Part shown: piece by piece, positions 7,002-49,329 of the stretch
Layout: each line of letters opens with the position of its first letter
Position numbering within the stretch: position 1 is the first letter of the stretch
NCBI GenBank assembly: GCA_040954595.2
Contig: CM082591.2
Span: forward strand, 2,083,745 to 2,147,744
Direction: 5' to 3'
DNA from: Balanoglossus misakiensis
Taxonomy: Eukaryota; Animalia; Hemichordata
DNA length: 64,000 bases
Program-made: the position numbers and the translations under genes
The notes under the pieces: model-generated
What the model was told of the DNA's origin: nothing
Seen by the model: the letters and a program-made list of their open reading frames with translations, nothing else
The model's database searches: none

Positions 7002-9557
7002 TATTAGAACAAAAAAGCAACGATATTAGGTAAATATACATGACTGCATTTCTAAATGAGAAACATTTCTGTAGCCTTGTAAATTACCACTCGTAGAACA
7101 CAATTGCACTCTGCTTTCTGTGGTTAGGTGATGAATTTCATGTCCTATACGTAATATTCTATAATGAAAAATATGTCTACTTTTATGGCAATGAAGCTTA
7201 TCAAATATTGGCAGCTCGGGAACTTCGGTAAATGTGGCATGAAGATATCCGGATTTAAGCACAATGGCGTTCGCGAGAAACCGTCACCTGTTCGTGACAT
7301 AATCAAAGTGATAATCATTTATATACGCTGGCTGGTTCAGGCTGTCTGGCGATTTCTTTGTTGAAAATCCAAAAACAGCTAAGCCACACTCTTGCATCAT
7401 TAAATGTTCAAGGCTTTATTTTGCATTCTTCTGCCAATCTGGCAAGGCATCAATGTGTCGTGCTATACAAATCTCAAATTGATCGTGAAATCCGGAGACA
7501 GGGTAAAAAACATCACTTGTTCCAGATGTTGCCAACTCCATGTAATCAAACGACCTCAATTTTCCAGTTAGCGAAACCTGCAAGTTGATATAGAAAACAA
7601 AACAAGTTAATAGTATAGGAAAGAATAGAAAAAGTAATTCTCCAAAGAGCAACGAAAGCAACAATCACACTACTTATTCACAATCACTACGACGCAAACA
7701 GTGGCCTCATAAATGATTTATGTATTTGAGATGACGACTGATAACTAATTTTAGGTTGCCATGGATTTTATTATATGCTGCGTAGCAACACAAGGGCAGG
7801 CGTGCTTTCACGATATTAAACTCCGCTTGTCGTTGTCCTTGTTGTTTTTGTATGTTGGTGACGATACAATTACAATTGAAGAACCCCGGATTTTTGTATC
7901 ATCGATTAGCCTTACTAAGTACCTGTTAGGTGTAAGTAGCAAGGCAAAATCAAGGGCAATATTGATGTCACAGGAAAAGTACACTTTTGAAAATTGCAAG
8001 GGCTAAGTTCTCATCGCATGCATGATACGCATGTACCGGCCTTGTGCCTGTGTTCAGCATATAAGCTAGCTGGAAGGCATTCGACAAAGACTAAAGTAAA
8101 TGTACAGTAAACATGACAACTGACCTTTCGCGTCACACGCAGCAATTATTTCTTAAAATTGACTTCAAATCACTACATATTGCCTTCTGGTGCATGGCAC
8201 TAAAGCAGTGGTACACAATAATACATTTGAAGAGCGAGCAGACAACACCAAATGGATAAATCCCATGATGAACACAGTACCGGGGGTATGTCGCTCGGCT
8301 GGGAGAATTTGACTCATCTGGTCGCATTTGCCAGTAACTATTTCCAATTGTTGGCCTTTCAGAACCCTCCCCAGATGGGAATTAGCTGAACTTTCAATCA
8401 TTCCCCTCTGTGAGTGACGACAATTACAGAACGTGTTTACTGCTAATCAGGTCTGCTCAGAGCAGATCAGAAAGGTGTAAGGGGTGGACCTTTTGATATC
8501 CTCGGGAGGGGGGTCTGCAAGATTGATGAGGTAATATTTTTTGTACCTGATCCACTGGTCAATTTTTCACTCTCTGATTTCTTGAAATTGTTCTTTGTGC
8601 TGTTCATTTGGAAAGGTTTATCTCACTTTCGTGCACCATCTGTTTTTCAAGCTTTCTCTGGCTGAAGTTATTTGCCTTGACATTTGCTGGGAATTTTCCC
8701 CTGAAAATCTTCCAGACCCTCGCCAGGAAATGAAGAAGTCCGCCCCTAACCATGAAAAAATTGCCAACCTGCACCTCTCCTGATGAAAATTAATAGGAAA
8801 ATGCATTCAACCGACGAGTTCAATCTACAGCATACAAAGAAAGGTTATCTTAACATGTATGTGTAGCCGCATTCTTGTGTATACTTAGCACGTAATTTAA
8901 TAGTTAGCGGGTATCTCACAGAAACCAGGCTATTTTTGGAAACACATAATCTTAGGCTGTGCGCGTTGTGTCGCCATCAAGCACTGAGATACCTGAGGCG
9001 AATGTATAATTCTGTATACACCTCTGTGATCTTTGAAGAGCCGTGTATGGTTTGACCTGCAACTGACGCTATGCGAACGCTCATGCTGATCGAATAGACC
9101 GTGTTCCGTACTCCACGGGACCACGGGAAATCTCGCGTGACATGGTAAAATATGCCTGCGAGTCAATCAGCAAAAATGGCGTATCTGAGTATTCAAAAGA
9201 ACGTTTGGTAGCGCTCTATTTTCGCGTTTGCCACTCGCTGAAAATCTGTGGATGGCTAGATTATTATCCAAATTATTAAGCCAGTCGTTTCTTACCAGCA
9301 TTATGTTTTATATTAATGAACATGATGAAAATGTGGGCAAATGTTATTATGTAACGGGATTAGAGTTAATTGTCTAGTCCAATATTTAGTAATTAAATCG
9401 TCTTTTCAAATTGAATGCATCGCAGAAACAGACTGGTAGTCCATATTTTAATTATGGCAAATATTGAGCTTGCGTATAATTATTAACTGGTATACACATA
9501 ATACCTAATAGACACTAATTAGTAAAGAGGGCGTTATGTAATATGCAACGACTCACC

Positions 9558-10739
9558 TTAAAGATAGGTATCAGGTCCCGGCATGGCTGCCAAAGGCCAC
9601 GCCATCTTCTTATCCCCTTTTGAGTCCCTGTCAAAATTTTTAGTCGGTGTACTTGATCGGTAGTTTCCGTTTCCGTTACTGGTTTCTATGATGCCCACGT
9701 GGTTTTTCTTGGCAAATCGCGATGTGGTCGTGATGGCATAGGTGTTGCTGCGATAACAACGCATGTTGGACATGCAGAAAACCTCCTTGCAGCCCCGACG
9801 GAAGTTCGAGTTGTAGCAAGAGTAGATGATGGGGTTGGAAACGCTTGATGCAAACGCGATCCACGTGACTGATATGTAAATAGTTGGGTTGACGTGCGTG
9901 GCCTGCGAGCATGCGTACCAGAGTTGCGCAATACAAAATGGCGCCCATGAGCAGAAGTAAGCGATGTTGACCATTGAGAGCATTTTAATAGTTTTGACTT
10001 TAGTCCTCGGGACTGTGTTCATAGTTCTTTGAAATGTCCTGCCTCCTACACCGACTGTCCATATGTACTTGTAGATTTTGATGTACACAATAAAAATTAT
10101 GACAACAGGGATGAGAAAGATGATGAGAAATATCAGAACTGTGTAGATTATTCCCCCTACTGTGTTTGGTATGAAAGTATTGCACAGCACGTTTCCATAG
10201 TAATGATCAGACGATGTAGCACCATAGAAGTAGAAAGTAGGGCAGGCGATGATGGCAGCGAAGATCCAGCTTCCTGTGATCATCTGTTTGGCCTTACTCC
10301 GTGTCACTTTAAAGCTCAGTGGGTAAATGATGGTGTAGAATCTATCGAAGGATATCGCGATCAAAACATACACCGTGGAGCCGGGCGTCAGAAGTTGGAG
10401 AAATCTCACCAACTTGCACATGAAGTCCCCGAAGACCCACTCGGCGGAGATGACCCTGGCTGCGATGAACGGCATGCAGAGGAAGGCGACTAGAAGGTCC
10501 GCCCACGCCAGTGACACTACGAAGTAGTTGGTCGTGCTTTGCATCCGTCGGCTGCGGTACACCACAATGCACACCAGCGTGTTGCCGAAAATGCATCCAA
10601 GCCACATGAGGGTCAGCGTGACGATCTCCAGAACGACGTTGGCGTTCGAGCGGTACGGGTCTGTCCACACAGCGGCGGTGGTGGCGTTGGCCGTAGGGAG
10701 CTCTGTTGTCAGCCCGTGGCCAGCTTCGGTTGACCCCAT
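9558..10739 (-). CDS. GPR19: Orphan class A GPCR GPR19 ortholog, 393 aa, single coding exon
   Basis: Seven hydrophobic segments with GN, LAxxD, DRF and NPIIY motifs. The C-terminal NFRRGCKEVFCMSNMRCYRSNTYAITTTSRFAKKNHVGI and the loop RTMNTVPRTKVKTIKM closely resemble vertebrate GPR19. A strong acceptor lies upstream (exon start 10937). Confidence 0.95.
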   Translation of the reverse strand: MGSTEAGHGLTTELPTANATTAAVWTDPYRSNANVVLEIVTLTLMWLGCIFGNTLVCIVVYRSRRMQSTTNYFVVSLAWADLLVAFLCMPFIAARVISAEWVFGDFMCKLVRFLQLLTPGSTVYVLIAISFDRFYTIIYPLSFKVTRSKAKQMITGSWIFAAIIACPTFYFYGATSSDHYYGNVLCNTFIPNTVGGIIYTVLIFLIIFLIPVVIIFIVYIKIYKYIWTVGVGGRTFQRTMNTVPRTKVKTIKMLSMVNIAYFCSWAPFCIAQLWYACSQATHVNPTIYISVTWIAFASSVSNPIIYSCYNSNFRRGCKEVFCMSNMRCYRSNTYAITTTSRFAKKNHVGIIETSNGNGNYRSSTPTKNFDRDSKGDKKMAWPLAAMPGPDTYL

Positions 10740-10865
10740 GATGTGTTATCATGGGGTGGCACCGGAGTTTAGGTTTTCCCACGCTAACCGATCACCGGGA
10801 AAATGAACTTGCCCCCGGTGAACCACAAGCCTACGCAACCCCAAGCAACACGTTACCTTCAAAAG

Positions 10866-13800
10866 TCACAAAAGTGGGTATCCAGATAAGGCAGTGTCTT
10901 CATAGTGTTCCCTTTGTAGCAACCTCACAGATGAAATCTGTTGAAAATTACAAAAAGAGAAAAAAATTCTGTAAATTTGTATATACAGTACTTAAAATTT
11001 TCTCACTGATTAATTCAGTGTTTTTGTTTGCTGTCGGCGTTAAATAAATAAATTACTCAACATTCATTCACCTCTTCGTCCGCAAACATTCATCCTATCC
11101 ATCGGAGCATACATATACAAATACGTTCGTACACACACGTACTCCTTCAATGCCCATACGACCAGCCACTTATTGTCGACGTCAGTGAAAACCACGCTTT
11201 CAAGACTTCTTAAAGGACACGTACACCAATTTCGCGCTTTAAATAGTAACATTCCTTGGCTAATTTGGAGTCTCTTCATTGTGGAAACCCCAATCACGCG
11301 TGGTGTCAACACAGGTCAAGATCATTAATTACATAGGGTATTGTTAAAGCAAACTCCAAACTCCAGAATATGCATGCGAAATATATAATGCCCACGCTGT
11401 AGTTACAGTCAGCAAATATCACACGTTTCAGAAGGTCAGACTGTTTCAGTTGACTTTATGTTACTCCATTTCTGAGATTGGGAAAAACATATTTTTCTGG
11501 AGGGAGGCATCACTGTGTATATTTTTCGTCACGTTTCACACTCCTGAACTTTCGATTATAATGTAAAACGCGTTCTTCAGTTATCCAACCCTGCATGTAG
11601 ATATAAAATTGGTAAAAGATATCGGAAGAGTATATTACACATCAGTCGATTCCAAGAAACAATTGTAAGAAATTATGGATTCCCCTCAATCACAGCATCA
11701 TTTCATTTTGTATGCATGTGCATTCAATCACACCAAAATACTCCTAATCGCGTTTGATTTGAAAGCGTTCAAACCAAAATTAATATTGATCAAGACACAC
11801 ACATCACCAACGGCAACGCGTACACATTTCTAAGAAGCGCGACTCAAATCAGGCTTTTGTGAAAACAATGGTAAGCCTATGGGCATGATTCGGGTATTAT
11901 ACAAAGTAGAACAGTCAACAAGCCTGAAACAAGCCAAATCAATCGTGAGTTATCCCGGAACGTCTCAAAGGGACTCAACTATACCATCGCACAAAACACA
12001 CCGTCCATTTCCTTTCACAACAAACTGAACTAGTTTTTGTTAACATGGCATACGTGTAGTTCTTGAAAACTGCATGAGCCAGGTTAAGTGTCTGACGAAC
12101 TATGACAGACTTCTAGGAAAAACTGTATGAGTACCTTTCAAAAAAGGGGTTGTCGTGGCAACGCTTGGTCTTCCTAAAATCAGAAGACGCTCTCTGCTGT
12201 GATAATGCTTTTGGAGACGTCAAGGAAATGCCGACACCTCTTGGAGAGATTGATCTGGAACACCGCGGTTGGTGAAAGAAAACCGAGAGTGTGAAAATAT
12301 GGCTGAATGGCTTCACAGGTCTTGGCTCAAATAAATATTTCCACATGCTGAGTGTTTGCACGACCGCATTGCCGCACACGTCCCATCATACAACAGTGGT
12401 GTTTCCGCCGGTCTATATTAAACATCTGCAGACCGATGGGGAACGTCCGTGAGAATAACGCACTTTCGAAGGATGAAAATGCTAAACTTCATCAGCGTAG
12501 ATGCCACCTTTTGTATCTCAGTCGGTAGGTAAGCCCAGCGCTTTGAAGGAATTCCAATTACTTTCTCGCTTCCAATGTCGACACGGCGACAAAGAGTATT
12601 CGTCTCGGAAGCGCTGCGTGAAATGCTCGATTTCATTTAAGCACGCTGGAGAATGCAGACACTCATAGGGCGACAAATAAACCAACGGCAATGAATCTCG
12701 TGAAATCTCGCCCAATGCGTAGAATACACGTTTGCCTGCCTTTTATACTCTGAATTAATCTAAGCAGGAGGCTTTTCAATTCAAAATGCAACGTACCATT
12801 CTGTGATTCCCCGAGCACTATAATCATTTTTTGCAACTGTCGACAGAGAATCTAATTTGCATTAAGTTTTGAAGAAGAAAGAGGAATATTCTGGAGAAGC
12901 ACTCGAGGGTGGACGGAAGAACGAGTGGAATCATATTTCAAGTATAAGTGCCTTCATTAGAGAGAAGAGCCCAGTGAAATGACATACAGCACTGCATCTA
13001 TCATCTGCCTTGTTCCGAGTGATTGACATGTGGAGTATGTTTGTCGTACGACCAGTTCATTGCGCGGGAAGTGCAATTACTGAAACTGTTCAGGGTGGGT
13101 TTCCAGACATCTTTACATCATCAAAAAGATGTAACGCAACACAAAGGACTCTTATGGTTCGAGTGATATGCGTTTCAGAGGACAATGGAACGCATCCAAG
13201 GAGATGGAGATGATTACATACTACCTGGGCAAGGACAACCACTGTGCGTACCGGACTGTGAAATTCAGTTGTCGTCTGATCACAAGCGACATGTAAAGGA
13301 ACCCCTCCTTGACAAAATCACAACAATAGTTGGCATTTCCACTGTAAGAATACACTCAATGGGGAAGCGAGCCAAATCACACGCAAAATGCCGTGAGACA
13401 ACAGTCCACATCTTGTGTGCAACACGCACATATTATCAGACGCCGAATCAATGCGTTTGTTTTGAAAAAAATAGGTGTTTCATTATAGGTAAAATGGAAA
13501 CTCTGTACATGTAGTTTATAGATGCACATTTGTATCAGAAACCTTGAAGGATTGCCTTTGTAGATGCAGTAGCTGTTTTTGAAATGTTGTTTACATTTAT
13601 CAGAATTTATATCTTCAAAGTAACTTGGCTATATTCACTACTTGTTTTTGAGTTACTAAAACGCCTGAGGCTCAGTTTGGTTATGTAACATATATGTGTG
13701 AATTTTAAAGGCGTGAAAAGCATGTCTGATTATAATGAGGTAGGTATTGTGATTTTCCTCATCTGTATTCCGTCGTCTGGTGCGTGGTTAATTAGCATTT

Positions 13801-16800
13801 TTAAATCTTGCAACAGTGTCGAGGAAATAGACAGTGACGTAGAGGTGGGAATATCACCACCAACACGTCATATATTATTACTAAAGACTTGACAAAATAA
13901 AGAAATTACCAATTTTGATTTTTACTTTGATGACGTAGGTACATGTGTGGCAAACGGACACAACATAGGTCTATTTATCCTGAGTTCTGTCAGGTACACG
14001 CAATGGCGTGTGGCTGTGCGTAAATACAAGATAATATCTTGCTTAATGCCACCACTCTTTTTGTATCCATGGTAATAGTCTACATAATTGCAAATCTGGT
14101 TTTGATTAGGGGGACGAACGGAAGCTCTTCGAAGCTTATATTTAACTACATGTATAATTGGAAACATAGATGTTTTTCAATTTGCGGATGTATACTTGCA
14201 GTGTGATCCCAGGCTAAAGTAGCTCAACTCTTCGAATGAATAGAACTCGACAAAAACTCTATCACAATGAAACAAACAATCACCTTGGAACCCATGTTTG
14301 ACAGCTTTTGCAAAACAGTCATGTCAAGAACAAGTGGTACTGACAGGCGAATTATTACAGGGCTTTTCTAAACGAGCATCGCTAATCCCTTGCGCTGGTA
14401 TAAACCTTTGAAGGTTATACTGAAATAACAAAAACAGTTATTAATTCTCAAATGAATACAGAACACGACTGCAGCCATTGTAGCTGAGTACGGCTACAGC
14501 ACGACACAAGTGCACTTTGGCCCTTGGGCGCGCACTCATAGTAGATGGGTTTGATGAAGATACCTCACACAGAGCATCAGACAGATGAAGGATTCATTTG
14601 AAGGAGTGTTTTGTCTGATGTAACTCAGCGATACAGTCGTGATTTAAAAGCCCATAAACCTAGATAAAGAGCCGGGGGTTCTGGAGAATAGGCAATATTT
14701 AAAAAGCTACACTAAACAAAATAGGGCCAATATAAAAGTTAATTAATACGAGAAATTTAAGATGTCTTGGCGCCACATGCCCACGACGAGGGAGTAAATT
14801 ACCACTGATTGATTGAAGTTATTACCTCAATGCTGCAGCTGTATAACTATCTCCAGGTGGCTACCGAGCCAACGGCAAGTGATTAGTTTCAAGAAATCAC
14901 TGTGGGCATACCGGTACAACAGTGACATCCAAAGTGTCGCAACCCCTCTCCAACATAAAACGCCCTGTACGGCAGACATGGGTCACGTTTGCAAATACCG
15001 TAAATACGTTTACTTGGCGACAACAGACGCTCCTAATAATCGAGGAATACACTCATTGTGAATATGGCTGACCGGAAATCCAGTGGTATTTCAGGAGCGA
15101 CATTTTCAATTACCTCACTTCCGGTTTACAGTGGCTATAGCGCGTCTACAAGATTCGCAATGGGTGCATTGATGACTGGCATTTGCCTATAATGCTTATT
15201 GTATTACAGCACGGGGATTAACGTAAAGTTCAATTCATTAAAAAAACTAGTTGGTTCATCGCCAGAGGCCACAACGATCAATAATGGATTTTGAAAGACA
15301 TTCGTTTTGGATACCTGCCTCGTGAAAAGCAATGTGTGGCAGGTGCGGTTTGGCAGTCGCAATTCAAACTCGAATCTCGTAAAAAGATTTCCAAGCCACC
15401 TGACTACAATATCTTTTTTCCAGCGAACTAATAAAATCCCAGTTCCCTCATTACTCACAATAGAATACCTTTAGGGTTAATTTTCAGTGGACAATTTTGA
15501 CAGTCTTTGTCTGGAATGACGACATCCCAGGCATTAAATGCTATTATTGTCCTAATTGCCTTTTTGCAAAATGATTATTTACTTATTAAACTGAAAACAA
15601 ATCTCCATGTCACCAAAGTAATTCAGCATCGTAAAGGTCGTGATATACTCTTCTGTCCAGAAGGCTGTCATTAACAAATATTTTCTTCTTGTTGCACCAT
15701 TTATCGTATTTCTTTTATATTTTAAATTGTATGCAATCAATTGCAATGAAGTAGATGGACATAATCTATTTGGTCGTTGACATTTATCAAAACCTTTGTA
15801 TTCCTCTCCATGGCTTTTTCCATGGTCATTATTTTTAAAGATCACAATGAGAATATCCCAACGACAGCTGACACTAAATTTCAAAGCAATCAGAAAGTAC
15901 TCTTTCATAAATTGATTTCTTGATGTATTAAATGCGTCGCAAAATGCCTCATTATGCCATTTTCACAATAATATCGGAAAAAGCTGACAGGGACACTCAA
16001 CTTTTGATACACAACACATCCATCAAATTCATCAGTGTGAGTTTCAAGAGGGAGCTTTTATTGGGTCAAAGCTTGGAGAAGAAAAAATCCATTACTTTTG
16101 TGAGTGAAACTACATCGGTTTCAAGGCCTTACAAGTGGTAAATTAATACAGTGACATTAAATTCTTCATACTGTGCATGAAAGACATTAATTTTCATGCT
16201 AGAACAAACAATGTGGAAAATAATGGACGCACAGCTACGTCAGTCGTTCACCCTTTCGCCGCGCGTCGTCATCATCAACAACAACAACATTGATAAAACC
16301 CAGTCAATTCTATTGCAATGACCAATCAGTGATATATGAGCCTAGCTGAATATTTCTATGGCATCATAAAAATATATTCTTAATACTAGTAGTAGAATTA
16401 CATGAAAACGATAATTTGTAGAAGATAAGTTATCATGCAGTTTATCGAAATTACAATAAATTTGATATTTTGTTGCAAATTGGCTAAATGAAAGATGTCT
16501 TCCATTCCGAACTGCAAATTACGTCTGACGTTCAATCGAACTAAATACTGACAAGGGGGAGCTATTCATTGCGATTTCGCGCGTGGGTGACGTTACCATA
16601 GCAACAGTTTGGTTGCTGCATGGCCAGGGAGGCAATTCGTAGGTTTACGAGAGTGGCGGGATAGAAATTCTTTGTACAGGGCCAGGGGCAATTAAGTTAT
16701 GATTTTCTCAATTTCATATTCATAACTCATGTGGTATACAGTTCGCAATTTATCACAACGTACAGAAAATGAGGTCGAAACATCTTTCTCGATCATAAAC

Positions 16801-19800
16801 CCATCGCTGTTAATTATCTACCTTTTCACTCCATATACTACGGTATCATTGACATCCAAAAATTGCTTTTATTCATTTCTCATAAAACACCCCTATTAAT
16901 TTACAATTCATTAATATGTGAGCAGCTAATAAAGGCATTATCTCAGATGTTTGTAGTTTAGATCAGAGGGGATGTCGTCTACCGGGTAAACTGCGCATGT
17001 GTGACTTTTCTGTTGCATATTGCTACGGTTTCATAAAAAATGTACATACTAGTAGTAGAATTACCGGTACATGAAAATGGCAAGTTGTAGAAGATAAGTT
17101 ATTATGCAATTTATCGAAATTACAATAAATTTGATATTTTGTTGCAAATCGGCTAAATGAAAGATGTCTTCCATTCCCAACTGCAAAGGTCAAAGGTTGT
17201 GACTATTCTTTGCGTAAGCAGTTTGTGATTTCTGACTTGGAGATGCAAATTGATTGGACGATAGATATGGGTGGATCGATGGTTGGTTGTTGTGTGGAGG
17301 GTAGTTCGAGTGGGTGGCCGCTTAACTTGGTTGGTCTTGGTTGGCTGGTGGGTGGATAGATCGATCAATGATCGAGGGACCAGACTAAATGTGCGACTGA
17401 ATCATGTCACAAGCGGCCCTAAAATAACCTTTCAAGTTCCGTACACAACACACGGGTACAGTATTCCGAGAACAAGATCCGTATCCTCAATACTTGTTCG
17501 ATAATTACGCACTCACGCAAAACGGTACTATTGATCCATGCAGATGGATTGAGTAGACCGCGCAGTCTGCACTTTAATCAATAAAAAGAAAGCTTCCTTA
17601 AAAGAACAAGGATGAGAAAGCTTCCTGGAAGATCCATGCTGGATATGACATCTCTCCAGAGACCCAGCACGTCTGACTTCCATTAGAAGCTGTTCAAACT
17701 ACACGCGGCTTGCAAAGACGATATGTATTTGTAACTTGGCACGTGACTAATGCAAATGTCTAGAGTTAATCAACCGGAAGTAGTCTCCTCCAAGCCTTTT
17801 TGTTCCTCGAGAAAATGTATCTGTCTGTTTGTCGGCCTGGGTTAGCTGCCTAGCTAACTTATATTTAGATGTATTTGCAGGTATGTCTGTCGCCTGTCTG
17901 TAACAGACAGAATGCTCGCTGATAAACCTGATTATTCAGTCACACATCTTGCCGGTAGACCTCTGCACACCGCTCTAAAAAGCCGGAAAAAGGGGTTACA
18001 TAATTGCCCTTCTCAAACTATTGCCAGTTGGCATGCACGATCAGGTCGACATATCCAGATAGAGCACCGCGGTTCAATTACGGTGCATCGGCGCGCGTCA
18101 TACCTCTTGAGCCCGAATCCCGCTGACGCAAATGGTATATAACCGCCCAGGATATCCTAACATAGATTGACATTTCAGAAATTGCACACATGCTCCTCGA
18201 TTTCCCGTTCAGTCAATTTTAACTGAAGTGGGTTATTTTGCGCGAGATGGTCTGCCTTCACCGTTTTCTATTCACCAAAAACACAAACATCTTAGTGTGA
18301 AAATTTAAAAGATACATCTGAGGCAGTAAACAACTTGCTGAGAAAATATGGCCAAGCGTAACATCCAAGCCATCGGGTGAGAGATCATTACATGCTTATA
18401 TGCCCAGATTAATAATATACATCGCTATAATTAGAGTCTACATCTGCATGTGAAAGTCATGCAGAAATCATGAAAAGTTATTCTCAACACAACATGACTT
18501 CAATCAATGAACTGCCACAGTGTTCTTTATAAGATAACATTAATAAGCTAATTTTAAAAGTCACCATGCAGCGCACCATCCTTTTAAAGCTTAAAGCTGC
18601 AGGGTTTCCATGTCTACCAACGTCACGTAAGTCAGGGCGCCCGACAAAGCTGGCTGAGACTTACGCTTGGTGCTAAACACATATGTTAAACATATTCTTA
18701 GGATCCAAGTTTATTTTAAAATCTCCCATGTGATCAGTAAGCGTGGTTCGCAATAAAAAGACTTAAGAATTTCGCATCTTCCTTCACGGTGCAAGATTTC
18801 TCAGAAAGTCTTTATGCGTTCTGCCATTCAGACTGGATGAAAATCGATCTGACATATAGATTAGAAAGGCCTTAGGTTAAGAACAGATTTGCAGCGTTCA
18901 GTATATACGGTAGTCTGTATGGGCTTCTACGAATTGAGAATCCGTAATATAGATTGAAGCTTCAGTAACTACCGGTATAACTGATATGTACCAGTGGCAC
19001 GGATCAGAGTGTGTAGTTACCATATGGAGTTTGAACCTGTGCTATAGAGTACAACGAAAACACGTGAGAATGTCTTTCCATATAAACTGCCTAGTCACGC
19101 GAGATTTCGCGGGATCACGTGGAGTTCGGAAAATTGTCTATTGTGTCGTCGCTCGAGCTTCAGATGGCAGCATCAATATTGACTGATTTGAGCAAAGTTG
19201 ACACTGCACAGTTCAACAGTAATCGGGACAATCAGGTCTACACTGTATCATGTTACATGAGGCGTGCGCGCGCGTTGCTTGGAAACGCACAGCAAGAGAG
19301 GGAGGAGGCCGAGGGGTCACCAAGACAACACGCATTGTCCGTCTCAGAGAAGATGCGGATGATCGACACCACCACAGCAGAGTGCTGGCAGTTGTCAACG
19401 AAATCAGGAACGTAACCTTTTGGACCATATGTGTGCCAACGGCGGTATTATGAACACCTGACACAGTCAGTTATGTACACACCACTTGGATGACACCAAA
19501 CTATTAAATGTAGAACAAACCTTACTGGCGATAAAACATCAAGGTTTGCACCGACGTGGTTATAGGCCTATTGGTGGTATTTCACAAACTACACCGTGAA
19601 ATTTATCGGGTAAAAGGAACATTGATTGCTATGTATTTTACGCAGCTATTTCATGATACATGGAATATCCCTGTAAACTGTGAACATCCACTTTAATATT
19701 GCCAGACTGTCTAAAAAGAGTTCGTGGTTTAGGCTGTCGAGATGTGTGTTACTGTCTTTCATTCGATGCACTTTATTCGATTCCATAATTGCCACTTTCC

Positions 19801-22800
19801 AGAAGCGCGCGCGTCAGAGGAAGCGTCGCCATGGTTACCTATCTGTTCCCCATTGTGTGAACAATGCATGGTGCCGGAATTAGAATGTACGTGTTTCTGG
19901 GCGGAATGAGCTGGTGTTACGTCATTTTTTGATATAACTGTTGTTGAAACCCTCGTGCTCTCGCTTAGAGCGTTGTCAGCTTCATGTATGTTATACATGC
20001 CTAGATTTGTTGGCCAAGATTTAATAATCGATGAATTCCCGCCCATTGCGAGATCTAGCGAGACTCGATCGAGATCTCATAGGGTCTCATGGAATTCGCA
20101 AAATGGTCTACTAGGCCCATCACGTTCTTGCATGTCATCAGATCCTCAAAACATTGACGCAAACAGGAATAATACTGAATGCATGATCAGACAGTAGTGA
20201 ATAACAAGCAAGTACAGTATGCATATATTCATGTTGAAATTGCCCTGGCAATGAAAACATTCATCCAATGTGTATCTTTTCGACCTCTCTATCAAGTTAA
20301 CAAATGTCATATTGTGGTGACGCTGATTGATTACACAGGGAATGCAAAGCCCAGGTTCCAGGCTGTTTGTTATATTCACGTTGAAAATTAATGCAAATAT
20401 TGACAATTGTCTCACCGTAAATGGCAATTCGAAAAGGACATAGCAGCCCTCGTTCAGAGCTGTGAAATGAAACAGCTCCAGCAAATAGCAATGTTCCACA
20501 CAACTGTTCCATAATATACCCCATAAACTCAATTTTCTTCGCAAAAGAACTTTGAGGAAACAAGAAAATATATTTGCTTCGTTCCGTGCTCGTTTAAGGT
20601 CGCCTCATGACGATAAATATTTCATGCTGAAGAGAGATATTGTGATTGCAACTTTACCTCTGACACTTTGGCTATTTTTGCATTCGTCTGTGTGAAATCC
20701 ATGGCAATGTGACGTTCCTGGTGAACGAATATGTCTCTGCCATTTTGCTGTACCAGTGGGAGGTTAATAAAACTTAGATAAACACTCCAAACATATATAC
20801 CTACTCCTCTGTAAGCAGATCTGTGCACGTTTGCAACCCAATGTATATAAATGTGTACATCACAATGAGTTTCAAGTACATTCACACTGTCATACACAAG
20901 AAAGTCAAAGCGTGATCATCAAAATGCCACACCGTTGACTAAATAGCGTATTTACTAATCTGTACACGCTAACGAACGCAAGGGTTAACGGGTTTGGTTC
21001 TGACTGCTGGCTGCTCAACTTTAAGGAACAATGCTGGGTGGTATCAAGATTGATATTCCAAGAACTCAGCGCGCGGTAATTGGTTTAATTAAGGTTTTTG
21101 ACAACCATGTACCATTCGTGATGTTTTGGTGATCGCACGTTCGACTTCCTTGCTGTCTTAAAACTCTGCTTTGTTTTCGCGGGCACGGGTGGTGGTAAAA
21201 CGTTCGATATTGTGAGCAGTCGCAGAACAAGGTCGAACACGCGATGCTCGAATTCACAAAACGACTGAATGTTCAATCTGCAGTTTCGTCCTCCGATGCC
21301 TGCGTGGCTAGCCAACACACACAGCGTGTCATTAGCACAAGCGCGCTTTGGGGTCGATATCTGCGTATTATAGTGGCGGATCTTTCTGAGAAAACACTTA
21401 GTTTCTCATCAAGGCCAAAAAGTCTCATAGATTTGAGATCAGATAGTAGGCCTATACGCCTCGGGGACAGATTTTCAGTACGGGAGTCTTTTTTTTTTCA
21501 AATTCAACTGCCAAGTACCAGTACTTCTAACACATAGCTGCTACTTAAATGGACGACGACCTCTGGCGCAAGGATTGATGGGATATCTAGAAAGGCCAAG
21601 TGTTTTGTGTCGATTGTGTTTATCACTTTCACTTGCCATGCGTATGATTTTCAGATATGTGTGAAATTGCATATAATGGCGGCCATACATTTTGGATGCA
21701 CTTGAAGAAATAGTCACTCAGATCTAACAACACAGTTCTTGTACAAGACCAATGATTTTGAAATAAAATCATACAATTACGTCAGTTTGATTAGCCAATT
21801 CGGAGTACATGATGCTTATTAAACAGGGTACAATGTATATCTTAGAATTTAATGGTCGGTTGCTAATAAGCCATCAAGGGCAAGGGTTTCCTTGTATTAG
21901 AGATGTACCTGGCTGTCCGATGCACAAAACCGACGTTTAAAAATTACCGTGAAACCTCTGTTATTTGTTCAACGCTTTCTGAGTTGTTAGCATTATCCAT
22001 TGCGATATTTACACAGAGGGTCAGCGACGTCACATATAATAAAAAGTCAAATCACAGACCTGGCTTCTGTCTGGCCTGAAGGTATAAGCTTTCAATTTCC
22101 TTCCATCTGCGGAAAATCGTGACTAAAGTCTGAACAATAAGGTACGACGACTTTCTTTCTCACTGCCTATAATGAAACACACCGCAACGTTCAAAGCTAC
22201 ACTGTAACATACAATATACTGTAAAACACTTAATTTTCGCGAGTTCAATTTTTTGCGATATCGAGAGAGGCCACTGTTTCGCAAGTATTAATTTTCGCGT
22301 TCTCTTATTTCATTCACTGCATCGTTATCTTCAAAAACAATTTACGCGAATTTTTATTTTCACGCTATTTTGGCTCTCGCGTATTTGGCGAAAATTATTG
22401 CTCGCGAAAATAAAGTGTTTTACAGTATTACTTTAACGGGAGCGCTCAAAATGGTTCATCTTCAGCCTATTTCAAACACACAGACAGATATCGTAACAAA
22501 ATCCGCCAAAAGAAAAGAAATCATATCTAAATTAAAGAACTCATTAAACATTAAACGATATTTTCAGGCACTTTTTCAGAGACAACTAATGAGATAGGGC
22601 GCTGGCGTAACGCAAGAGTACACCTCAGGCCTGCACAGCAGTGAGAAAAAAATGCTGAATTCGCAGGCGTAGTGTGCTCGAACGAACGCTCCATGCTTGA
22701 TACATGAATTTGATGTTTGTTCGCTTGTCTGCATGAAACATACATACATACATAGGTACTACAACAATGTTCAAATAAAGTGAATTTTTTACAACCCAGT

Positions 22801-25800
22801 CTCATTCCCACCATAATGATTAATTGCCGTTTCACGACGGGAACATTGCCCGGGCTGCGTATAACCTTTCACAAGCACAGTTTTGGTTTTAATGTTCGAC
22901 AAAATAAGCTCTGAAATATTCCGACGATTATATAAAACAGCAAGACATCGTTTCCCTTGTCTTCGAGTCTTTGATTTATATTTCTACATCACGTAAATCA
23001 GGATTGACATTTAACATGATGCCTGTGGCATACACACTGACACAACAGACAAGTTCAGCTGGCGTAAAATCGAATTCTACTTTTCTTCTCATCCTTTCTC
23101 TCCCCATCCACTGCTCTAAAAGAAAACGAGCCTGACGACACTAGTTGCCACACAGTGACCACACATCACCATGGCAACATTACTACCACCCAGTGCTGTT
23201 TTTAATGTCCGTCATCCGATTGTAACGGAAGAGCGAGAAAACGAGTACACTGGGAGATATTTACTGATAAAATGGCGGGCAGCCTTGACAACATGGTTCG
23301 TAATATTTTACCTCCAGTAAATCATCCTGGCAGTACTCCAGTCGACAAACGAAAATGACGGAGTCATAAAATTCCTTGAGAGCTTTTCGGCTGTAAAATT
23401 GATGGATCATTATTGAAATAAAAACATCTACATGTACAGCAGAGGCAGAAGGAACGATAACCCAGTTGAGCACAAACTACCGCCATTAAAAATAAGAGAA
23501 ATGTTGCTCAACATTATAGTAGGCCTATACGGACAAAACACAAATTCACACACGAACGTTTTCCCCCGATTCGATATTTGCTCACACCACATTCGACGTG
23601 ACATGTAGCCGCGATATGGACGCGAATAAACCCGCCTCGATGTCCACGCTGGCGTGTGGGGAAATAGTTGGTTCAACAGGCCGGCCGGGAAAAGCAGGTC
23701 GTTCGTTCCTCAGCGCATATTATATCGCAATTGAGGCCAACTGCAGCCTGTGTAACGCAGTGGAAAAAGGGTCGAATTCAAGGTCGGTGTATATTAATCA
23801 GTCTTAGATACACAATCGCAAATTTTAATTATATGTGGTTTAATTACACAGAAGACGTGCAATTCTAATCATCAATTGTTCCCATAACAACATTATTTAA
23901 TCGTCTATGAAGATGGCTTTAACATCCCGCCATGTTAACGTGTATCTAAAAGAATATGAATATTTATTTTAAATACAGATTTTAGCTTACCTATTTTGGG
24001 CACAGATTGTCCATGTGGTGCTTAAAACTCATACCTGAAACTCCATCGTTGAGAAACACCTCGGCACGGCCGATAAAGACTTGTAGAAATGGTGTCTGCT
24101 GATGCGTCAACGAAACAGCACTGTTTTTCTCTTCGTCGAGATAATGCCTCATGTAGGGCCCCTCAGCCTGTCAATGCGCGAGCTCCGTGTGTTTGTCTCT
24201 CCCTCGCGTCCAGACCCCCTAAGTCAGTGCAGTTCACTCTCAGCTTCAGTCGTATCCTTCACATACCTTGTAATCGAATATAACAAAGAGAAGACAGATA
24301 AGTAACCGATCCCCTTATACAGAAATTGTTACCTCCATGTTTGAGTGTTCACTGAATAATGCTTGAAGCTCGCGCAGAAAACTAAAACATCAAGCAATAT
24401 TGGTTTGAAATATTGAGACTATGTGGACATTGGATAAAATATAAGCAATAAATACGAGTATAAAAAGAGTTACATTTTTAAAGATATATATTGAGATACG
24501 GGCTACAGATTCCCTCGAAGCAGTGAATAGAAAATAAAGTGTTGCAAATAACATAAGATGAAATCATGCAAGTTTTATAATAATGGGGTTGCTGTGTTTA
24601 TAAATTTATGATTCAGAATGCCCTAACATTAAAATCTGTATTATTGAAAGTAGAATAATAATAGTGTCCATAATAAATTTACCAGAGTGTCCGCGTTATA
24701 AGTTTGTATGTAATCGCATAGGTTAGAGCCGGTAGCGTGGTTTCTTTGCAGTTACCACAAGGAGGTTTATTAAAATAAATTGTTGGTATTTTGATTGTCG
24801 TGCTTGGGCCAAACCGGCTTTGTCGGTGTTTAAATTGGACCTACATAACATGTAGGGAAAGGGATTATAAATTCTACACCCTTTAGAACAGCCTTCATTA
24901 CTTACTACTACCTGGCATACAGTTATAAATACCGGTACATGTAGTCAGAATAGAACCACCATTCAATTTTCTAGGGCTTCCCAATTATCCCTTACTGTCC
25001 TTAGCCTTGGCCTTATCACAGCGACTGAATTAAGTCGTTATACGTGTTTATATCAGCTCTCGTTGGATAGATGGCTCGGGTCAAGTTAAAACAGGGTGTT
25101 ATCATACATCCTCATTTCTAGAGGTTATATGATGTTGCGTAAACCAAGATTTCCTTGAACCAAGAAACTATATTATGTAAGCCTATATACTAGTACATCA
25201 CGGCTATAACACACTACAGGAAGGATGGTTGGAGCTTATGAAAATGGATCATAATTACTTTGCTCTCCAGCTGATATGAGCGACATTAGTGCAACATAAA
25301 AATTGGCCTCCACTGAAGTATTATTATCATCCTTATTAGGAAAACGATCGAAGTTCAGAGTAGTCGATATAAAAACGAAATGACCCACAATGCACTGCTA
25401 CTTCCGAGATAAAATAACAGGCTTAAAGGAACAAAGTCTCTCTCTCGCTGCCTTTTTGATACAAGACAGTCCGCTTATCTTATTCTACATGTGGATATAT
25501 AGTGAATCAACGTGCGGTCGATATGCTTGCTTGAATATTCCCTACTAGCAATGGATGACGTCACACAACTGCAAATTAGTGCAGAACGATACATCTCAAG
25601 ACGCTCATTAAAATGTTTCAAAAACCCTTTGGTGGGAAACGTCCAGCGTTTTTTTAAATAATTAATTTTTTCAAGAAGACAGCGGTTATTATCACCTTAA
25701 CATTTATCACAAATGCAGTAGTCCAGAGGAAAGCAGTCAATTTGAAGAACACATGTTCTTAATGATGGCCACGAGACAGTTTGCCGTGCTCAACACTTCA

Positions 25801-28800
25801 AATCTGAACAAAATATAAAATGTTATATCATCTTAGAAACAATATGCGTATCAAATGGCATGTAAATTCGGATTTATATTTCTCGCGATATTGCTTCACA
25901 GAATTACTATCTTAAGCCATGTACTGAGCTAAGCCTTTTGCAATTAACTTGAAATGGATCCACCGCAGTTTAACCCATTTGGTTTGCCCTGAACGGTATG
26001 ATTGCGCGCGGCTTTGGCGAAATAAAAACGAAATTGGTGATGTCTTCGGAAACAAATCAGCGACCCCCCCCCCTCTCCCAATCGCATGCATCTCGAACAA
26101 CAAAAGCGAAAATTATGAGCACACTAATGAGATCTCGTAAATTGCCTTGGTCATCAGCATTGATCAATTTGATATATTAAAACAAATAAAGAAGTCAACA
26201 TTATTAGCTTTACATTATTAATGTACATGAACCGCGCTGTCTAAACACTATAAATTGTACTGTTCTGTTCACATGACGATAGCATTAATCAAATCCTTAC
26301 AAATGCGACTCGTACATTGTACATTCGTATGTCTGGAGGCATTTCGTACATTTTGGCTTCTTACACAAAAGTCGCTTATTCCTTATTTGGTAATTTGCTA
26401 TGATACTGCTCTGGAACGTCATTTTCAGGGATGATAAAGCCAGTGGCACTAAGCTGGCAAACAAAATGTCATTAACATAAAATTTAGGTTCCCATTAGGT
26501 TCTACATTGTATATTTACATTACTTTATTTAGACCTGTTGTTGTTGTGGGTCACATGAGACAGAATTTGTCCAGGCACTGAAAACGATTCCTGTGAAAAA
26601 AATCCCCCAACGAGTGTGAGAAATCTTATCCAGGTCCTTAGTATGAGATTCAATTTCTCGCACAACCACAATTTTCTCGAATTCGCATTAGAATCTTGAA
26701 TATTTAATTGTCGTCTGCAGCTCCACTTCGCGTTAGTTTCCGCAGTGTTTTAGTACACGTCGCGTCATTGGATAACACGTCGTGCGTGTTAAGTAAATTA
26801 CATTTATCATCCAATCAGCGCTTGTGTCATAGTGTGGGATCTATTCACCCTACACCGTCGATCCCACACGGTCAGAATTGTTAGAAATAACAGTAAGAGA
26901 CGCTGGTATTTGAAGAAACTCTTTCAGAGTTTCATGTACAACACTGTTCATGCAATTCGCGGCTTACACTCAATAACTTCACCTCACGCACGTCTTTTGT
27001 GAGTTTGGCAGATGCTATGAATTGTACAATAATTGTTCGCTGAACTGCAGAGAATCACTTTTAAAGAAACGAGGCGACTCATGTGAACACCGAAGAGAGT
27101 CATTGGGGAAATGTTGACTAGTCTATTTTTGACATCATTAGGTCCATTTATAAAATTTTGCCTATAGCACATTACTTTCTTGTCAATATATAACTCTATT
27201 TTTTATAATTCTTTAGACCTCAAAACGTGTAATACAGTTACACAGCTCTTTGACCGTACGTTCGGGACTTATGCATTATCTCTGTGCAGCTTCGTGTTTT
27301 CCACGTTCACTCTGCGCAAAATGCCTCTGCCACAGGCCTTTGACTGATAAAGTATCGACACTGAGTGGGCACGTATAGTACATGAACATTACTGACGTAT
27401 ATAATTTGTTTATACAATTCTCACTCATAATTGGATAGTTAGTGCCAGCGTGTATACTTTCTATACTTCAGGGTGTCGCTCGGTGGGATGACCTTTGAAC
27501 TCGACTCTCGTTAACGTTTAATTGCCCACCTGTTGGTAGATCGCTTGTAAAATGGAAAATAGAATGGGGTTTAAACCCAGAAGACCACGGCTGTGATATC
27601 AATCCAGTACTGTATCTACGTAAAACATATAATCACCCACTTTTGAATATCTCAGTTGATATTGACAATTGTGGTGGATTTGAAGAGCTCTAAAGCTGGA
27701 CTCGCTAACTTCTCTGCCCCAGTTCAAAAACAAGGTCAACAACAGCGTAAGCGTTGTGTAGCAAACTTGACATTGGAAGAAGTTTCTCGCGCGAAAATAA
27801 CAGAGACTCTTGCAGGTTGTCCTTTCGATGACACAGTTTACGCGTGTCAGCTTTCGATGATATTTTGTGAGGCGTATACGTGTTATGAATGGCGTATGGG
27901 GGTCATGACGCCGAAGGGAGTTTACACGTCACAGACAGACACAGGTCTACACGCCAAGCACACATTTCAGGATGAATATTGTTGATTATCGGATTACGCT
28001 TGTACCAATGAGAAATTCAGTGTTAACACTTACCTCGCGTGGCACCATACTTTCACAGCATCTCTGATGATGACGGCGTGTACAACCCACAAAAATCGCA
28101 ACACAGACCTGAAAAATGACAGCAAAGGCTTTCTCTTATCTACCACAGTATCAATGTTTATGGGTCATACAGCTGTCGTGACATCAGTGACAGGTGACTG
28201 CTAACAACATGCAAAGTATATTTTGTCACCCTAGCTTTGTGGGTTAACTTGATTTATGATAATATGACTACCTGGCCACTACTCAAATGTGCGTATCCTT
28301 GAAACGACTACTTGAAAACTGTGATAGTCTATCCCTTCGCGAGGCGGTTTGCTTGCTGAGCCGCGGCTGGCGAGGTGTTAGGAAAATTACCTCAAGATTT
28401 GGCATATAATATGCGGATTCATAAAAAGATGGCTTGTAGTTTATTGGAATTTGTCGAGGAAGACATGTTGGCCGAATGTGCGGGATCTTGACAACCGAAT
28501 TTGAGTCTGAATGTCGAATGTCAACAAAAGCATAGGAAATGCTACACGGCAATATTATAAACGATAATGCTTGAAAAAGCCGATCAGACAAACAGGAAAA
28601 ATGATGTTTGAGGGCGCACTGACAGCCTGTCAAAGTTTGATTTTTTTCTATGAACCGTTTGCCACAGACTTTAGGAAACAGCCGACAAAAATGCATTCGT
28701 TGGTTTTATTTGATATGCTTATTTTATTTGGAAGTAATTTCAATTCTCTCCCCCCCCCCTCTCTCTCTCTCTCTCTCTGCATTTCAAGGTCGTTTGAGAA

Positions 28801-29046
28801 ATTCACAGCTTCGCAGAAAAAAAAGGGGGCATGATTTATACCACAGGGGATCGGCAGTGATGAATATATCATTTTTATAATGATTACAATTTTGGTCTTT
28901 GCCATTTACAAAATTACTTCCATTCACAAGGAACTAAGCAACAGAGAGGATGATTTCATCTCCAGACTGAAAGTAAAGAAAGTTACGACTTACACGACTT
29001 ACCGGTATTCAACACCATCCTCCCCCGCTTTGTCTGTTTTCTCCAT
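10866..29046 (-). CDS. Putative spliced 89-aa upstream ORF/microprotein in the GPR19 leader (exons 29046-29003, 28108-28034, 23390-23312, 10937-10866)
   Basis: Strong-context ATG (ACGATGG); donors GTAAGT, GTAAGT, GTAAAA; acceptors TTTTTCAG, TTTTACAG, TTTTCAACAG. Phases 2/2/0 give MEKTDKAGEDGVEYRSVLRFLWVVHAVIIRDAVKVWCHASRKALKEFYDSVIFVCRLEYCQDDLLEISSVRLLQREHYEDTALSGYPLL*. No transcript evidence is available. Confidence 0.5.
16350..17187. repeat. Pair of ~170-bp direct repeats (approx. 16350-16518 and 17017-17187) around a ~500-bp spacer
   Basis: Both copies contain the near-identical block TACTAGTAGTAGAATTAC...TTTATCGAAATTACAATAAATTTGATATTTTGTTGCAAAT.GGCTAAATGAAAGATGTCTTCCATTCC.AACTGCAAA. Confidence 0.9.
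16592..16605. promoter_or_regulatory. RFX X-box motif (one of several across the GPR19 locus)
   Basis: GTTACCATAGCAAC matches the X-box consensus GTNRCC-AT-RGYAAC. Similar motifs occur at 12149, 19825, 23165 and 29098. Confidence 0.5.
22219..22425. mobile_element. Tc1/mariner-superfamily MITE, 207 bp, TA target duplication
   Basis: TA|CTGTAAAACACTTAATTTTCGCGAG ... CTCGCGAAAATAAAGTGTTTTACAG|TA: a 25-bp TIR with one mismatch, plus internal repeated TTTTCGCG motifs. Confidence 0.9.
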
Positions 29047-29641
29047 CGTCCCTGCCTTCAATTTCTGAACCTTGTATTAACCCAGTACGGCAGAGTCGTC
29101 GCCATGGTTACGGCTGGCACTTCAAAGATATTTTTAAGGATCTGTATATTTACGGCAAAGTTACTGTTGTTATCTAGGTGGGTCATTCCATTTGCCTTCC
29201 CCACCCCCCGTAAAAAATATTGAACATTCCCAAAAACAACATACAACATGTACTTCAAACCTTCGCACGCCATCCACGGCAGTCTCTTGTTTGCCATCTC
29301 GATAAAAAATTGTCGTTCAGTATTCACAAGGTTATTGGTATGCCGCCCCTCCCCCCGGGGGCGGTGACACTGGGGGGTATCCATGCGTGTTCCCAGAATC
29401 AAGGGAAGGGGTGGTTTTTATTCCCTATCACGGGTCCGTGAAATCGACAAAAGGGGGAACGCACTTTTAAAAGAACCGGCTAAAAACGGTTTGAAATATC
29501 CCGAGAAATATCAATCACACACTCAAACTTCACCCCGGACTTGAAATTTTGTGGAACGAGTCGGCATGGATGCCCAAGCTCCGTTTGAGTGTTTCCACCG
29601 GGAATGAAATCGGGCAGCTCCGTAATATTATTTCTACATAC

Positions 29642-48600: not shown

Positions 48601-49179
48601 CAAGATGGCCAACAATTGAAGCGTAGTTTTGATTTTCCAACTGTGAAACAAGAGATTGATTTTAACTGTAACTGTACTTTTCTTCATAATATTCACATGG
48701 AAAGATGTAAGGGATATACTGTTGGAATATACAAACAGTTAATTAATGAAGAATTCCAAAATCTGTCTACAAAAACTGAGTTTGTTTTATAGTGTTTATT
48801 TTGAGATTCTTTTGAAGTACAGTGGTTGGGAATTTTGAGATTTCAGTGAAATGCATATTATTTGTGTGTGGATTAATTTGTATACTTTGTAAATATTTTC
48901 ACTTCCACATTGTCATTGATGCTGCTTTTATTAAATATTGTATTATCAACTGATTTTATTCGACTGATATACATCCATGTGCCTGTGTGTGTGTGTGTGT
49001 GTGTGTGTATTTATATACAAACATGTTTGTCACATTAAAATGGCATTGATCTGCACAAGTCAAAAGATTGGCTTTGATAATTTCTCATAAAGTATATCAG
49101 ATATTTTGATTTTATGTGTGCGGTGTGTCCCACTTGGAATTGGGGCAGGCAAAATGAGAAACACATATTTCAATGTGAA

Positions 49180-49329
49180 TAGCCATCTTCCCGCCAGGAG
49201 TTTCAAGGAAGTCCCAGAATGATTGGAGGTCGTTAACCTTTCACCTCATCCTTCGACCAATCATAGGCCTTGTTTGTCGTCCCGCCATATTGCTTGACGG
49301 TATCCTCGTGTGACTCTGCTGTCTCGAAG
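49180..49329 (+). promoter_or_regulatory. NAP1L promoter/first non-coding exon
   Basis: YY1-like GCCATCTT and CCGCCATATT motifs, GATTGG and CCAATC boxes, and donor AAG|GTAAGG at 49329. It lies upstream of the exon carrying the ATG at 50633. Confidence 0.55.

What the first reader, a model, noticed from the sequence alone, without database searches (positions are those of the whole stretch)
10866..29046. Spliced 89-aa upstream ORF sharing an mRNA with GPR19 (candidate microprotein + GPCR bicistron)
Seen: three small minus-strand exons with good splice sites (29046-29003, 28108-28034, 23390-23312) join the acceptor of the GPR19 exon (10937) in compatible phases 2, 2 and 0. They give a stop-free ORF from a strong-context ATG: MEKTDKAGEDGVEYRSVLRFLWVVHAVIIRDAVKVWCHASRKALKEFYDSVIFVCRLEYCQDDLLEISSVRLLQREHYEDTALSGYPLL*. 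It ends ~126 nt before the GPR19 ATG and has a hydrophobic or amphipathic segment and a CxxxxC-spaced pair. A six-frame ORF scan cannot see it because it is split over 18 kb. Inference: either a peptide-coding uORF that regulates GPR19 translation, or a co-expressed accessory microprotein. I do not recognise the peptide, and chance in-frame joining cannot be excluded.
Basis: partly seen in the sequence, partly recalled or inferred. Interest (0 to 1): 0.85.

Follow-up and report, generated by a model that had tools for sequence, protein, structure and literature searches.

The report
Unproven upstream ORF in GPR19 leader
Four DNA pieces in front of an acorn worm's GPR19 receptor gene join on paper into an 89-codon reading frame, but one splice is weak and no RNA support or related peptide was found, so it is likely an ordinary upstream frame that would dampen receptor output rather than a second protein.

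Summary
Coordinates, GT-AG sites, phases (2, 2, 0), the 89-codon frame, the strong start context and the 126-nt gap are all in the sequence. The main ORF is GPR19 (93% identical to Ptychodera flava). With a splice model trained on 36 introns of this window, the exon 1 and exon 2 donors rank 2 and 1 of 1196 and the GPR19 acceptor 1 of 986, so a spliced leader is likely real. Exon 3 is weak (exon rank 73). Shuffled exons 1-2 give a joinable frame of 89 aa or more in 26% of 300 trials, so the length is within chance. Codon composition is modestly coding-like for exons 1-3 (P=0.0025, uncorrected) but not for exon 4 (P=0.8). No homologue of the exon 2 or exon 3 frame was found, and 38 distant GPR19 loci show no similar peptide. 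Junctions and conservation in other acorn worms could not be tested. Best reading: an ordinary uORF (43 aa without exon 3, 89 aa with it) in a leader holding nine upstream ATGs. A conserved microprotein remains possible (about 20%). The scan had not noted this on other DNA.

The parts
29098..29111 (-). X-box-like palindrome (RFX-type site, consensus recalled), 65 nt upstream of the uORF ATG; candidate promoter element. It holds an ATG (29105) that opens a 15-codon ORF ending just before the uORF start
   Evidence: 3 matches in the window, 0.02 expected from 100 shuffles; the pattern was drawn from this site, so the enrichment of this one match is circular
29003..29046 (-). Leader exon 1, coding part of the uORF (ATG at 29046, A at -3, G at +4; 44 nt); 5' end of the exon unknown
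   Evidence: donor 29002 rank 2 of 1196; codon score P=0.005 against dinucleotide shuffles
28034..28108 (-). Leader exon 2 (75 nt, symmetric phase 2-2); best-scoring internal exon of the region
   Evidence: acceptor rank 9 of 986, donor rank 1 of 1196, sum 21.1 bits against 16.2 for the best antisense candidate; codon score neutral (P=0.18)
23312..23390 (-). Candidate leader exon 3 (79 nt, phase 2 to 0); weak and unproven
   Evidence: acceptor rank 84, donor rank 22, exon rank 73, sum 11.4 bits; codon score P=0.04; with the coding score added it ranks 5 of 109 open candidates, 14.0 bits against 13.2 for the best antisense candidate
10866..10937 (-). 5' end of the GPR19 coding exon: acceptor at 10937; last 23 codons and stop of the 89-aa form (or 4 codons and stop of the 43-aa form)
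   Evidence: acceptor rank 1 of 986; codon score not coding-like (P=0.8)
10740..10865 (-). 126-nt spacer; in frame with both ORFs but closed by TGA TAA just before the GPR19 ATG; holds a weak-context out-of-frame ATG at 10752
9558..10739 (-). GPR19 orthologue, intronless 393-aa class A GPCR
   Evidence: 7tm_1, E=5e-53; 93% P. flava, 83% G. talaboti, 78% S. kowalevskii GPR19
9550..9557 (-). Consensus splice donor one base after the GPR19 stop; possible 3'-UTR intron
   Evidence: 12.6 bits; highest leave-one-out score of the 36 true donors is 12.4; use not shown

Best explanation
The GPR19 gene of this acorn worm likely has a spliced 5' leader whose strong-context ATG at 29046 would open an ordinary upstream ORF (43 codons if exon 3 is skipped, 89 if it is included) that likely lowers GPR19 translation, with the peptide probably a by-product. 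Shown: the sequence, phases, stop positions, nine ATGs between the X-box and the GPR19 start, and top-ranking splice signals for exons 1, 2 and the GPR19 exon. Inferred: transcription from an RFX-type promoter near 29.1 kb; splicing of exon 1 to 2 to the GPR19 exon; capture of most scanning ribosomes by the two strong-context ATGs in exon 1 (29046 and 29018); GPR19 made from this isoform only by leaky scanning or inefficient reinitiation, or else from nearer promoters. All joins that start at 29046 stop in the GPR19 exon upstream of the receptor ATG, so no fusion protein arises.
For: Splice ranks 1, 2 (donors, of 1196) and 1, 9 (acceptors, of 986) on the GPR19 strand with nothing comparable on the antisense strand (same top exon under a generic model). 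A pyrimidine-rich acceptor lies 30-150 nt upstream of the GPR19 ATG in 6 of the 8 distant loci examined (best-of-region pick, no control), with variable length and no shared peptide. ORF length within chance (26% of 300). Exon 4 codons non-coding-like under all five training sets (P 0.19-0.88). Nine ATGs in the 461-nt leader counted from the X-box. No homologue of the exon 2 or exon 3 frames, in 120 GPR19 proteins or in 38 GPR19 loci.
Against: Exons 1-3 together are more coding-like than their own dinucleotide shuffles (P=0.0025; whole ORF P=0.03; 400 shuffles), GC by codon position is 0.55/0.34/0.51 as in the window's genes, exon 2's best frame is the uORF frame, and exon 3 ranks 2 of 40 phase-compatible open exons downstream of exon 2. 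The homology searches are weak: 24-26 informative residues, only longer proteins, and gene annotation rarely records uORF peptides. Nothing shows that exons 1-2 splice to GPR19 and not to another transcript.
Confidence: 0.5

Rival explanations
1. The four exons are spliced as proposed and encode a selected 89-aa, 10.4-kDa acidic soluble microprotein made from the same mRNA as GPR19 (bicistronic), either acting on the ribosome in cis or accompanying the receptor, for example in ciliary trafficking.
For: Strong start context and compatible phases; coding-like codon composition of exons 1-3 (P=0.0025; P 0.001-0.005 against intronic stop-free stretches for three of four training sets); the stop falls in the GPR19 exon; X-box-like site 65 nt upstream.
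Against: Weak exon 3, and a stronger rival acceptor at 23524 (10.5 bits against 4.4) shares its donor and would stop the frame at 71 aa; length within chance; exon 4 part non-coding-like; the codon signal rests much on the 14 purine-rich codons of exon 1, was found after choosing segments, and vanishes for the whole ORF with GPCR-only training (P=0.39 and 0.26); no Pfam family; no homologue; no transmembrane-grade or signal-like segment (best 19-residue hydropathy 1.46).
Confidence: 0.22
2. Exons 1-2 (perhaps 3) belong to a separate small gene or non-coding RNA ending within the 12-17 kb gap, and GPR19 is transcribed from a nearer promoter.
For: Further X-box-like sites at 19838 and 16605; a cluster of donors at 24266, 24034 and 23990; 11 AATAAA hexamers on the minus strand between exon 1 and the GPR19 exon; coding-like signal stops at exon 3; introns of 4.6 and 12.4 kb are far longer than the 36 introns of the neighbouring genes (86-1279 nt).
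Against: No strong further coding exon was found downstream (best open candidates 14-16 bits, most true exons above 17); long 5'-UTR introns are common in GPCR genes (recalled); the acceptor at 10937 needs an upstream donor and the two best are those of exons 1 and 2.
Confidence: 0.2
3. All three upstream pieces are pseudo-exons picked from 18 kb of intergenic or intronic DNA; none is spliced.
For: Dozens of exon-like candidates exist on both strands; no RNA evidence in hand.
Against: The two best donors and the best exon of the region lie within 1 kb of each other, on the GPR19 strand, just downstream of an X-box-like site, and exceed every antisense candidate.
Confidence: 0.08

Closest known systems
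Ordinary (sequence-independent) uORFs in spliced 5' leaders of intronless class A GPCR genes (general knowledge, recalled)
   Same: Single coding exon with an acceptor shortly upstream of the ATG, several upstream ATGs, uORF ending before the main start.
   Different: The 89-codon form would be long for a regulatory uORF, and reinitiation after it would be poor; it spans up to three introns.
Conserved-peptide uORFs (CPuORFs) of animals, ESUCA screen, PMC7530721 / bioRxiv 10.1101/672840 (passages read)
   Same: ATG-initiated ORF in the 5'-UTR, separate from the main ORF and not fused to it.
   Different: Defined by cross-order peptide conservation and low Ka/Ks; neither is shown here. GPR19 is not named in the main text (0 occurrences); the supplementary list could not be read.
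Bicistronic uORF microproteins such as ASDURF-ASNSD1, MIEF1-MP, SNURF-SNRPN, uMKKS (recalled; ASDURF also named in scan note e1-7591451)
   Same: Multi-exon upstream ORF of about 70-100 aa on the mRNA of an unrelated protein.
   Different: Those peptides are conserved and detected as protein; this one has no detected relative, family or fold, and no similarity to them was tested beyond Pfam scans of single exons (no family).
Alternative proteins from GPCR mRNAs that modulate their receptor: AltB2R of the bradykinin B2 receptor (PMC7949122, search listing and start of abstract only); PEP7 of the angiotensin AT1a receptor (recalled)
   Same: A second ORF on a GPCR mRNA proposed to affect the receptor.
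   Different: Those were shown experimentally; here no translation, product or interaction is shown.
GPR19 of hemichordates and vertebrates (mouse Gpr19 PMC8599615, start of abstract only)
   Same: The main ORF is a clear orthologue, same length as the P. flava protein.
   Different: No GPR19 uORF was found in print by three searches (listings only, one preprint opened and found irrelevant).

Membership tests
GPR19 orthologue (main ORF) | Class A 7TM domain | tested here: met
   Pfam 7tm_1, E=5.4e-53
GPR19 orthologue (main ORF) | Best relatives are annotated GPR19 over the full length | tested here: met
   93%, 83%, 78% to three hemichordate GPR19 proteins, 97-100% coverage
uORF | ATG upstream of the main start, open frame, stop before the main ATG | tested here: met
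   (on the predicted join)
uORF | Lies on the same mRNA as the main ORF (junctions exist) | not testable with these tools
   no RNA holder listed, so no reads could be laid; splice scores only
uORF | Translated and affects main-ORF output | not testable with these tools
   needs Ribo-seq or reporters
Conserved-peptide uORF / bicistronic microprotein | Peptide conserved in other orders or closer relatives | tested here: inconclusive
   no hit; but no hemichordate DNA or transcripts were available and the queries held 24-26 informative residues
Conserved-peptide uORF / bicistronic microprotein | Purifying selection (Ka/Ks < 1) | not testable with these tools
   no orthologous DNA
Conserved-peptide uORF / bicistronic microprotein | Coding-like codon composition | tested here: inconclusive
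   whole ORF P=0.03, exons 1-3 P=0.0025, exon 4 P=0.8; depends on training set; 15 of 18 true 88-codon chunks reach P<=0.05
Conserved-peptide uORF / bicistronic microprotein | ORF longer than chance joining gives | tested here: not met
   26% of 300 shuffles give a joinable ORF of 89 aa or more
Single-pass membrane accessory protein (RAMP/MRAP-like role, recalled) | Transmembrane helix or signal peptide | tested here: not met
   best 19-residue hydropathy 1.46 with internal Arg, His, Asp, Lys; 11-residue peak reached by 40% of shuffles; no dedicated predictor was run
N-terminal extension or read-through fusion with GPR19 | Continuous frame into the receptor | tested here: not met
   same frame but three stops intervene; no similar extension in 120 GPR19 proteins
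Exonised LINE reverse-transcriptase remnant | Significant similarity to retroelement proteins | tested here: not met
   best hit E=0.09 in L010/L011, equalled by 9 of 100 shuffles; no transposon Pfam family in 34 surrounding frames

The most novel reading that the evidence does not exclude
Acorn worms make a selected, family-less 89-aa microprotein from three dedicated coding exons in the leader of the orphan ciliary receptor GPR19, under an RFX-type promoter: a bicistronic microprotein-GPCR unit in which the small protein gates translation of the receptor or chaperones it.
Probability: 0.2. Interest if true: 0.68.

Novelty: new member of a known kind. Interest (0 to 1): 0.3.

Why it matters
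If the peptide is real and conserved, it would be a new microprotein family tied to an orphan GPCR with reported ciliary and circadian roles, and a ready candidate regulator to test in other animals. If it is an ordinary uORF, it is one more example of a GPCR leader loaded with upstream ATGs, of local interest only. One look at hemichordate RNA-seq and genomes would decide.

Tried and rejected
No whole genome is held for this window. Sequencing runs: no RNA holder listed for 9500-11000; this is no evidence either way, and no reads could be laid. Pfam: no family for exon 2, 3 or 4 frames at E<=1, and no hit above a curated cut-off in 34 surrounding frames. Homologue searches: exon 3 frame with intronic flanks, proteins of 85-2000 aa, none; exon 2 frame, 78-2000 aa, 1 candidate, none at E<=10; shorter proteins were not searched in that database; phmmer of the exon 3 frame over 1.84 billion representatives gave 1 hit (E=5e-4), a 209-aa tandem-repeat protein judged spurious. 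Exons 1 and 4 were not searched in the large databases, and the whole peptide was compared only with the 120 GPR19 proteins and 38 loci held locally. The ESM Atlas could not read a new sequence. The window's own GPR19 is not in the protein collection. GPR19 scan of prokaryote genomes: 0 of 64 pattern matches. Rfam 9-31 kb: 0 matches. Rejected: fusion with GPR19, membrane accessory protein, LINE remnant (see membership tests). Literature: the ESUCA supplement was too large to read; one human Ribo-seq ORF catalogue (id recalled) is not held and the paper reader then closed, so human GPR19 uORFs in those tables remain unchecked. Scan look-ups by sequence and relatives found nothing. No structure or complex was predicted.

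Full report
OBSERVATION. The four pieces are at the stated places. Joined by coordinates they are 44, 75, 79 and 72 nt, all introns GT-AG, phases 2, 2, 0, giving 89 codons and TGA. The ATG at 29046 has A at -3 and G at +4. The stop ends at 10866, 126 nt before the ATG at 10739. Skipping variants give 18 aa (exons 1+4), 43 aa (1+2+4) and 64 aa (1+3+4).

MAIN ORF AND ORGANISM. 10739-9558 encodes an intronless 393-aa class A GPCR. It is 93% identical to Ptychodera flava GPR19 (also 393 aa), 83% to Glandiceps talaboti and 78% to Saccoglossus kowalevskii (403 hits at E<=1e-60, best 120 listed). The window is therefore inferred to come from an acorn worm, in line with a scan note on the same genome.

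ARE THE EXONS REAL? I annotated by eye 23 introns of an LRRIQ1-like gene and 13 of a NAP1L gene in this window; the joins give open frames of 1584 and 414 aa, which validates the coding introns. With weight matrices trained on these 36 introns, in 10.9-29.7 kb on the minus strand the donors of exon 2 and exon 1 rank 1 and 2 of 1196, the GPR19 acceptor ranks 1 and the exon 2 acceptor 9 of 986. Exon 2 is the best internal exon (21.1 bits; best antisense candidate 16.2). A generic model with recalled frequencies also ranks exon 2 first. Exon 3 is weak: acceptor rank 84, donor rank 22, exon rank 73, 11.4 bits, matched or undercut by only 5 of 34 true internal exons. A stronger acceptor at 23524 shares its donor and would end the frame at 71 aa. 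So exons 1 and 2 are likely real exons; exon 3 is open. No RNA run was listed to test junctions.

IS THE ORF MORE THAN CHANCE? Under the generic model, 7 of 33 candidate third exons read through after exons 1-2 and 4 of 33, exon 3 among them, give 89 aa or more. Under the window model 64 candidates reach exon 3's splice score, 5 joins give 89 aa or more, and with exons 1 and 2 dinucleotide-shuffled a joinable frame of that length still arises in 26% of 300 trials. Length and phase fit carry little weight.

CODING SIGNAL. GC by codon position is 0.55/0.34/0.51. Against 400 stop-free dinucleotide shuffles the codon score gives P=0.03 for the whole ORF, 0.0025 for exons 1-3, 0.005 for exon 1, 0.18 for exon 2, 0.04 for exon 3 and 0.8 for exon 4; 15 of 18 true 88-codon chunks reach P<=0.05 in the same test. 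With four smaller training sets the whole-ORF P ran from 0.013 to 0.39. With splice and coding scores added, exon 3 ranks 5 of 109 open candidates and 2 of 40 phase-compatible ones, at 14.0 bits against 13.2 for the best antisense candidate; 29 of 33 true exons score above 15 (not leave-one-out). The signal is suggestive, not decisive.

PEPTIDE FEATURES. 10.4 kDa, pI 5.5, three Cys. The best 11-residue hydropathy and hydrophobic moment are reached by 40% and 30% of 2000 shuffles, CxxxxC by 7%. The best 19-residue hydropathy (1.46) is at the level of GPR19's two weakest helices and the stretch holds charged residues; a membrane anchor is unlikely. No Pfam family.

CONSERVATION. Single-exon frames found no relative (one search gave one repeat-protein artefact). 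None of 120 GPR19 proteins has an extension like the peptide (best E=0.38). A scan of metagenome contigs gave 38 animal GPR19 loci from 234 pattern matches; none matches the peptide (best E=0.09, equalled by 9 of 100 shuffles). In 8 of the 38 loci, chosen for holding the start of the gene, 6 show a pyrimidine-rich acceptor 30-150 nt before the ATG (no control for this pick), with no shared peptide; in L004 only 30 nt are available, too few for a 23-codon tail. An X-box-like site lies upstream in 3 of the 8. These animals are distant (39-49% GPR19 identity in the best segment) and most loci hold under 4 kb upstream, so this argues only against deep conservation of the exon 4 part. Conservation among acorn worms, the real test, could not be examined.

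MECHANISM. An X-box-like palindrome lies 65 nt upstream of the uORF ATG; GPR19 appears in papers on ciliary receptors (PMC5350516, PMC9868275; search listing only; ciliary location otherwise recalled), so an RFX-type promoter is plausible but inferred. From this site the four-exon leader is 461 nt and holds nine ATGs, two in strong context in exon 1 and a weak one 13 nt before the GPR19 start that opens a 136-codon out-of-frame ORF. The uORF is in frame with GPR19 but three stops intervene. By established scanning rules such a leader would give little receptor; output would need leaky scanning, reinitiation (easier after 43 codons than after 89) or other promoters, for which there are candidates at 24.3, 19.8 and 16.6 kb. 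If the consensus donor one base after the GPR19 stop is used, termination at the uORF would lie 1.3 kb upstream of a junction and could trigger nonsense-mediated decay; this is untested.

PRIOR KNOWLEDGE. Searches for GPR19 with 'upstream open reading frame' (2 papers), 'uORF' (1), 'bicistronic' (4, 3 listed) and 'hemichordate' (2) listed nothing on a GPR19 uORF (listings only; one preprint opened). The ESUCA preprint does not name GPR19 in its main text; its supplement and human Ribo-seq catalogues could not be read and may bear on this. The scan holds no note with the word GPR19.

VERDICT. Real sequence pattern, likely real spliced leader, unproven 89-aa product. Ordinary uORF 0.5, selected microprotein 0.22, separate upstream transcript 0.2, pseudo-exons 0.08. 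Interest 0.3.

Noticed in passing
window 9550-9557 (-): Consensus splice donor one base after the GPR19 stop (12.6 bits, above the leave-one-out score of all 36 training donors); possible 3'-UTR intron. Not evident after the stop in 9 distant loci.
   Followed up: partly
window 10752-10342 (-): Weak-context ATG 13 nt before the GPR19 start opens a 136-codon out-of-frame overlapping ORF; no Pfam family; the same frame stays open 85 and 104 codons in L001 and L018 but 32 or fewer in five other loci.
   Followed up: partly
window 19825-19838, 16592-16605, 23878-23891, 45091-45104, 55280-55293, 238-251: Further X-box-like palindromes; the one at 19838 is identical to that at 29111; the one at 16605 abuts a CRE-like half site (motifs recalled). 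Possible alternative promoters or enhancers.
   Followed up: no
window 29800-29641 and 24300-23990 (-): A TATA-like stretch near 29790 followed by a strong donor at 29641, and three donors at 24266, 24034, 23990: candidate alternative first exons.
   Followed up: partly
window 35740-36828 (+): Second intronless class A GPCR (7tm_1, E=1e-38), divergent to GPR19, 6.7 kb from exon 1; subfamily not determined.
   Followed up: no
window 39934-48620 (+): 24-exon LRRIQ1-like gene (name recalled from LRR + IQ domains and an E/K/R-rich coiled region), 1584 aa.
   Followed up: partly
window 49300-55155 (+) and 60445-62581 (-): NAP1-like nucleosome assembly protein (414 aa, with a non-coding first exon) and a MOB1/phocein-family gene.
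   Followed up: partly
window 960-1262 (+): Likely 3' end of a LINE (recalled resemblance) ending in a short 5-nt repeat tail, inside an intron of the gene at the window's left end.
   Followed up: no
window 57890-57978, 61917-62077; 16347-16518 with 17014-17187: Two long hairpin (MITE-like) palindromes and a 170-nt direct repeat pair flanking the X-box at 16.6 kb.
   Followed up: no
L006, L008-L038: Many of the metagenome GPR19 loci match in separate pieces, i.e. GPR19 appears intron-containing in those animals, unlike here.
   Followed up: no
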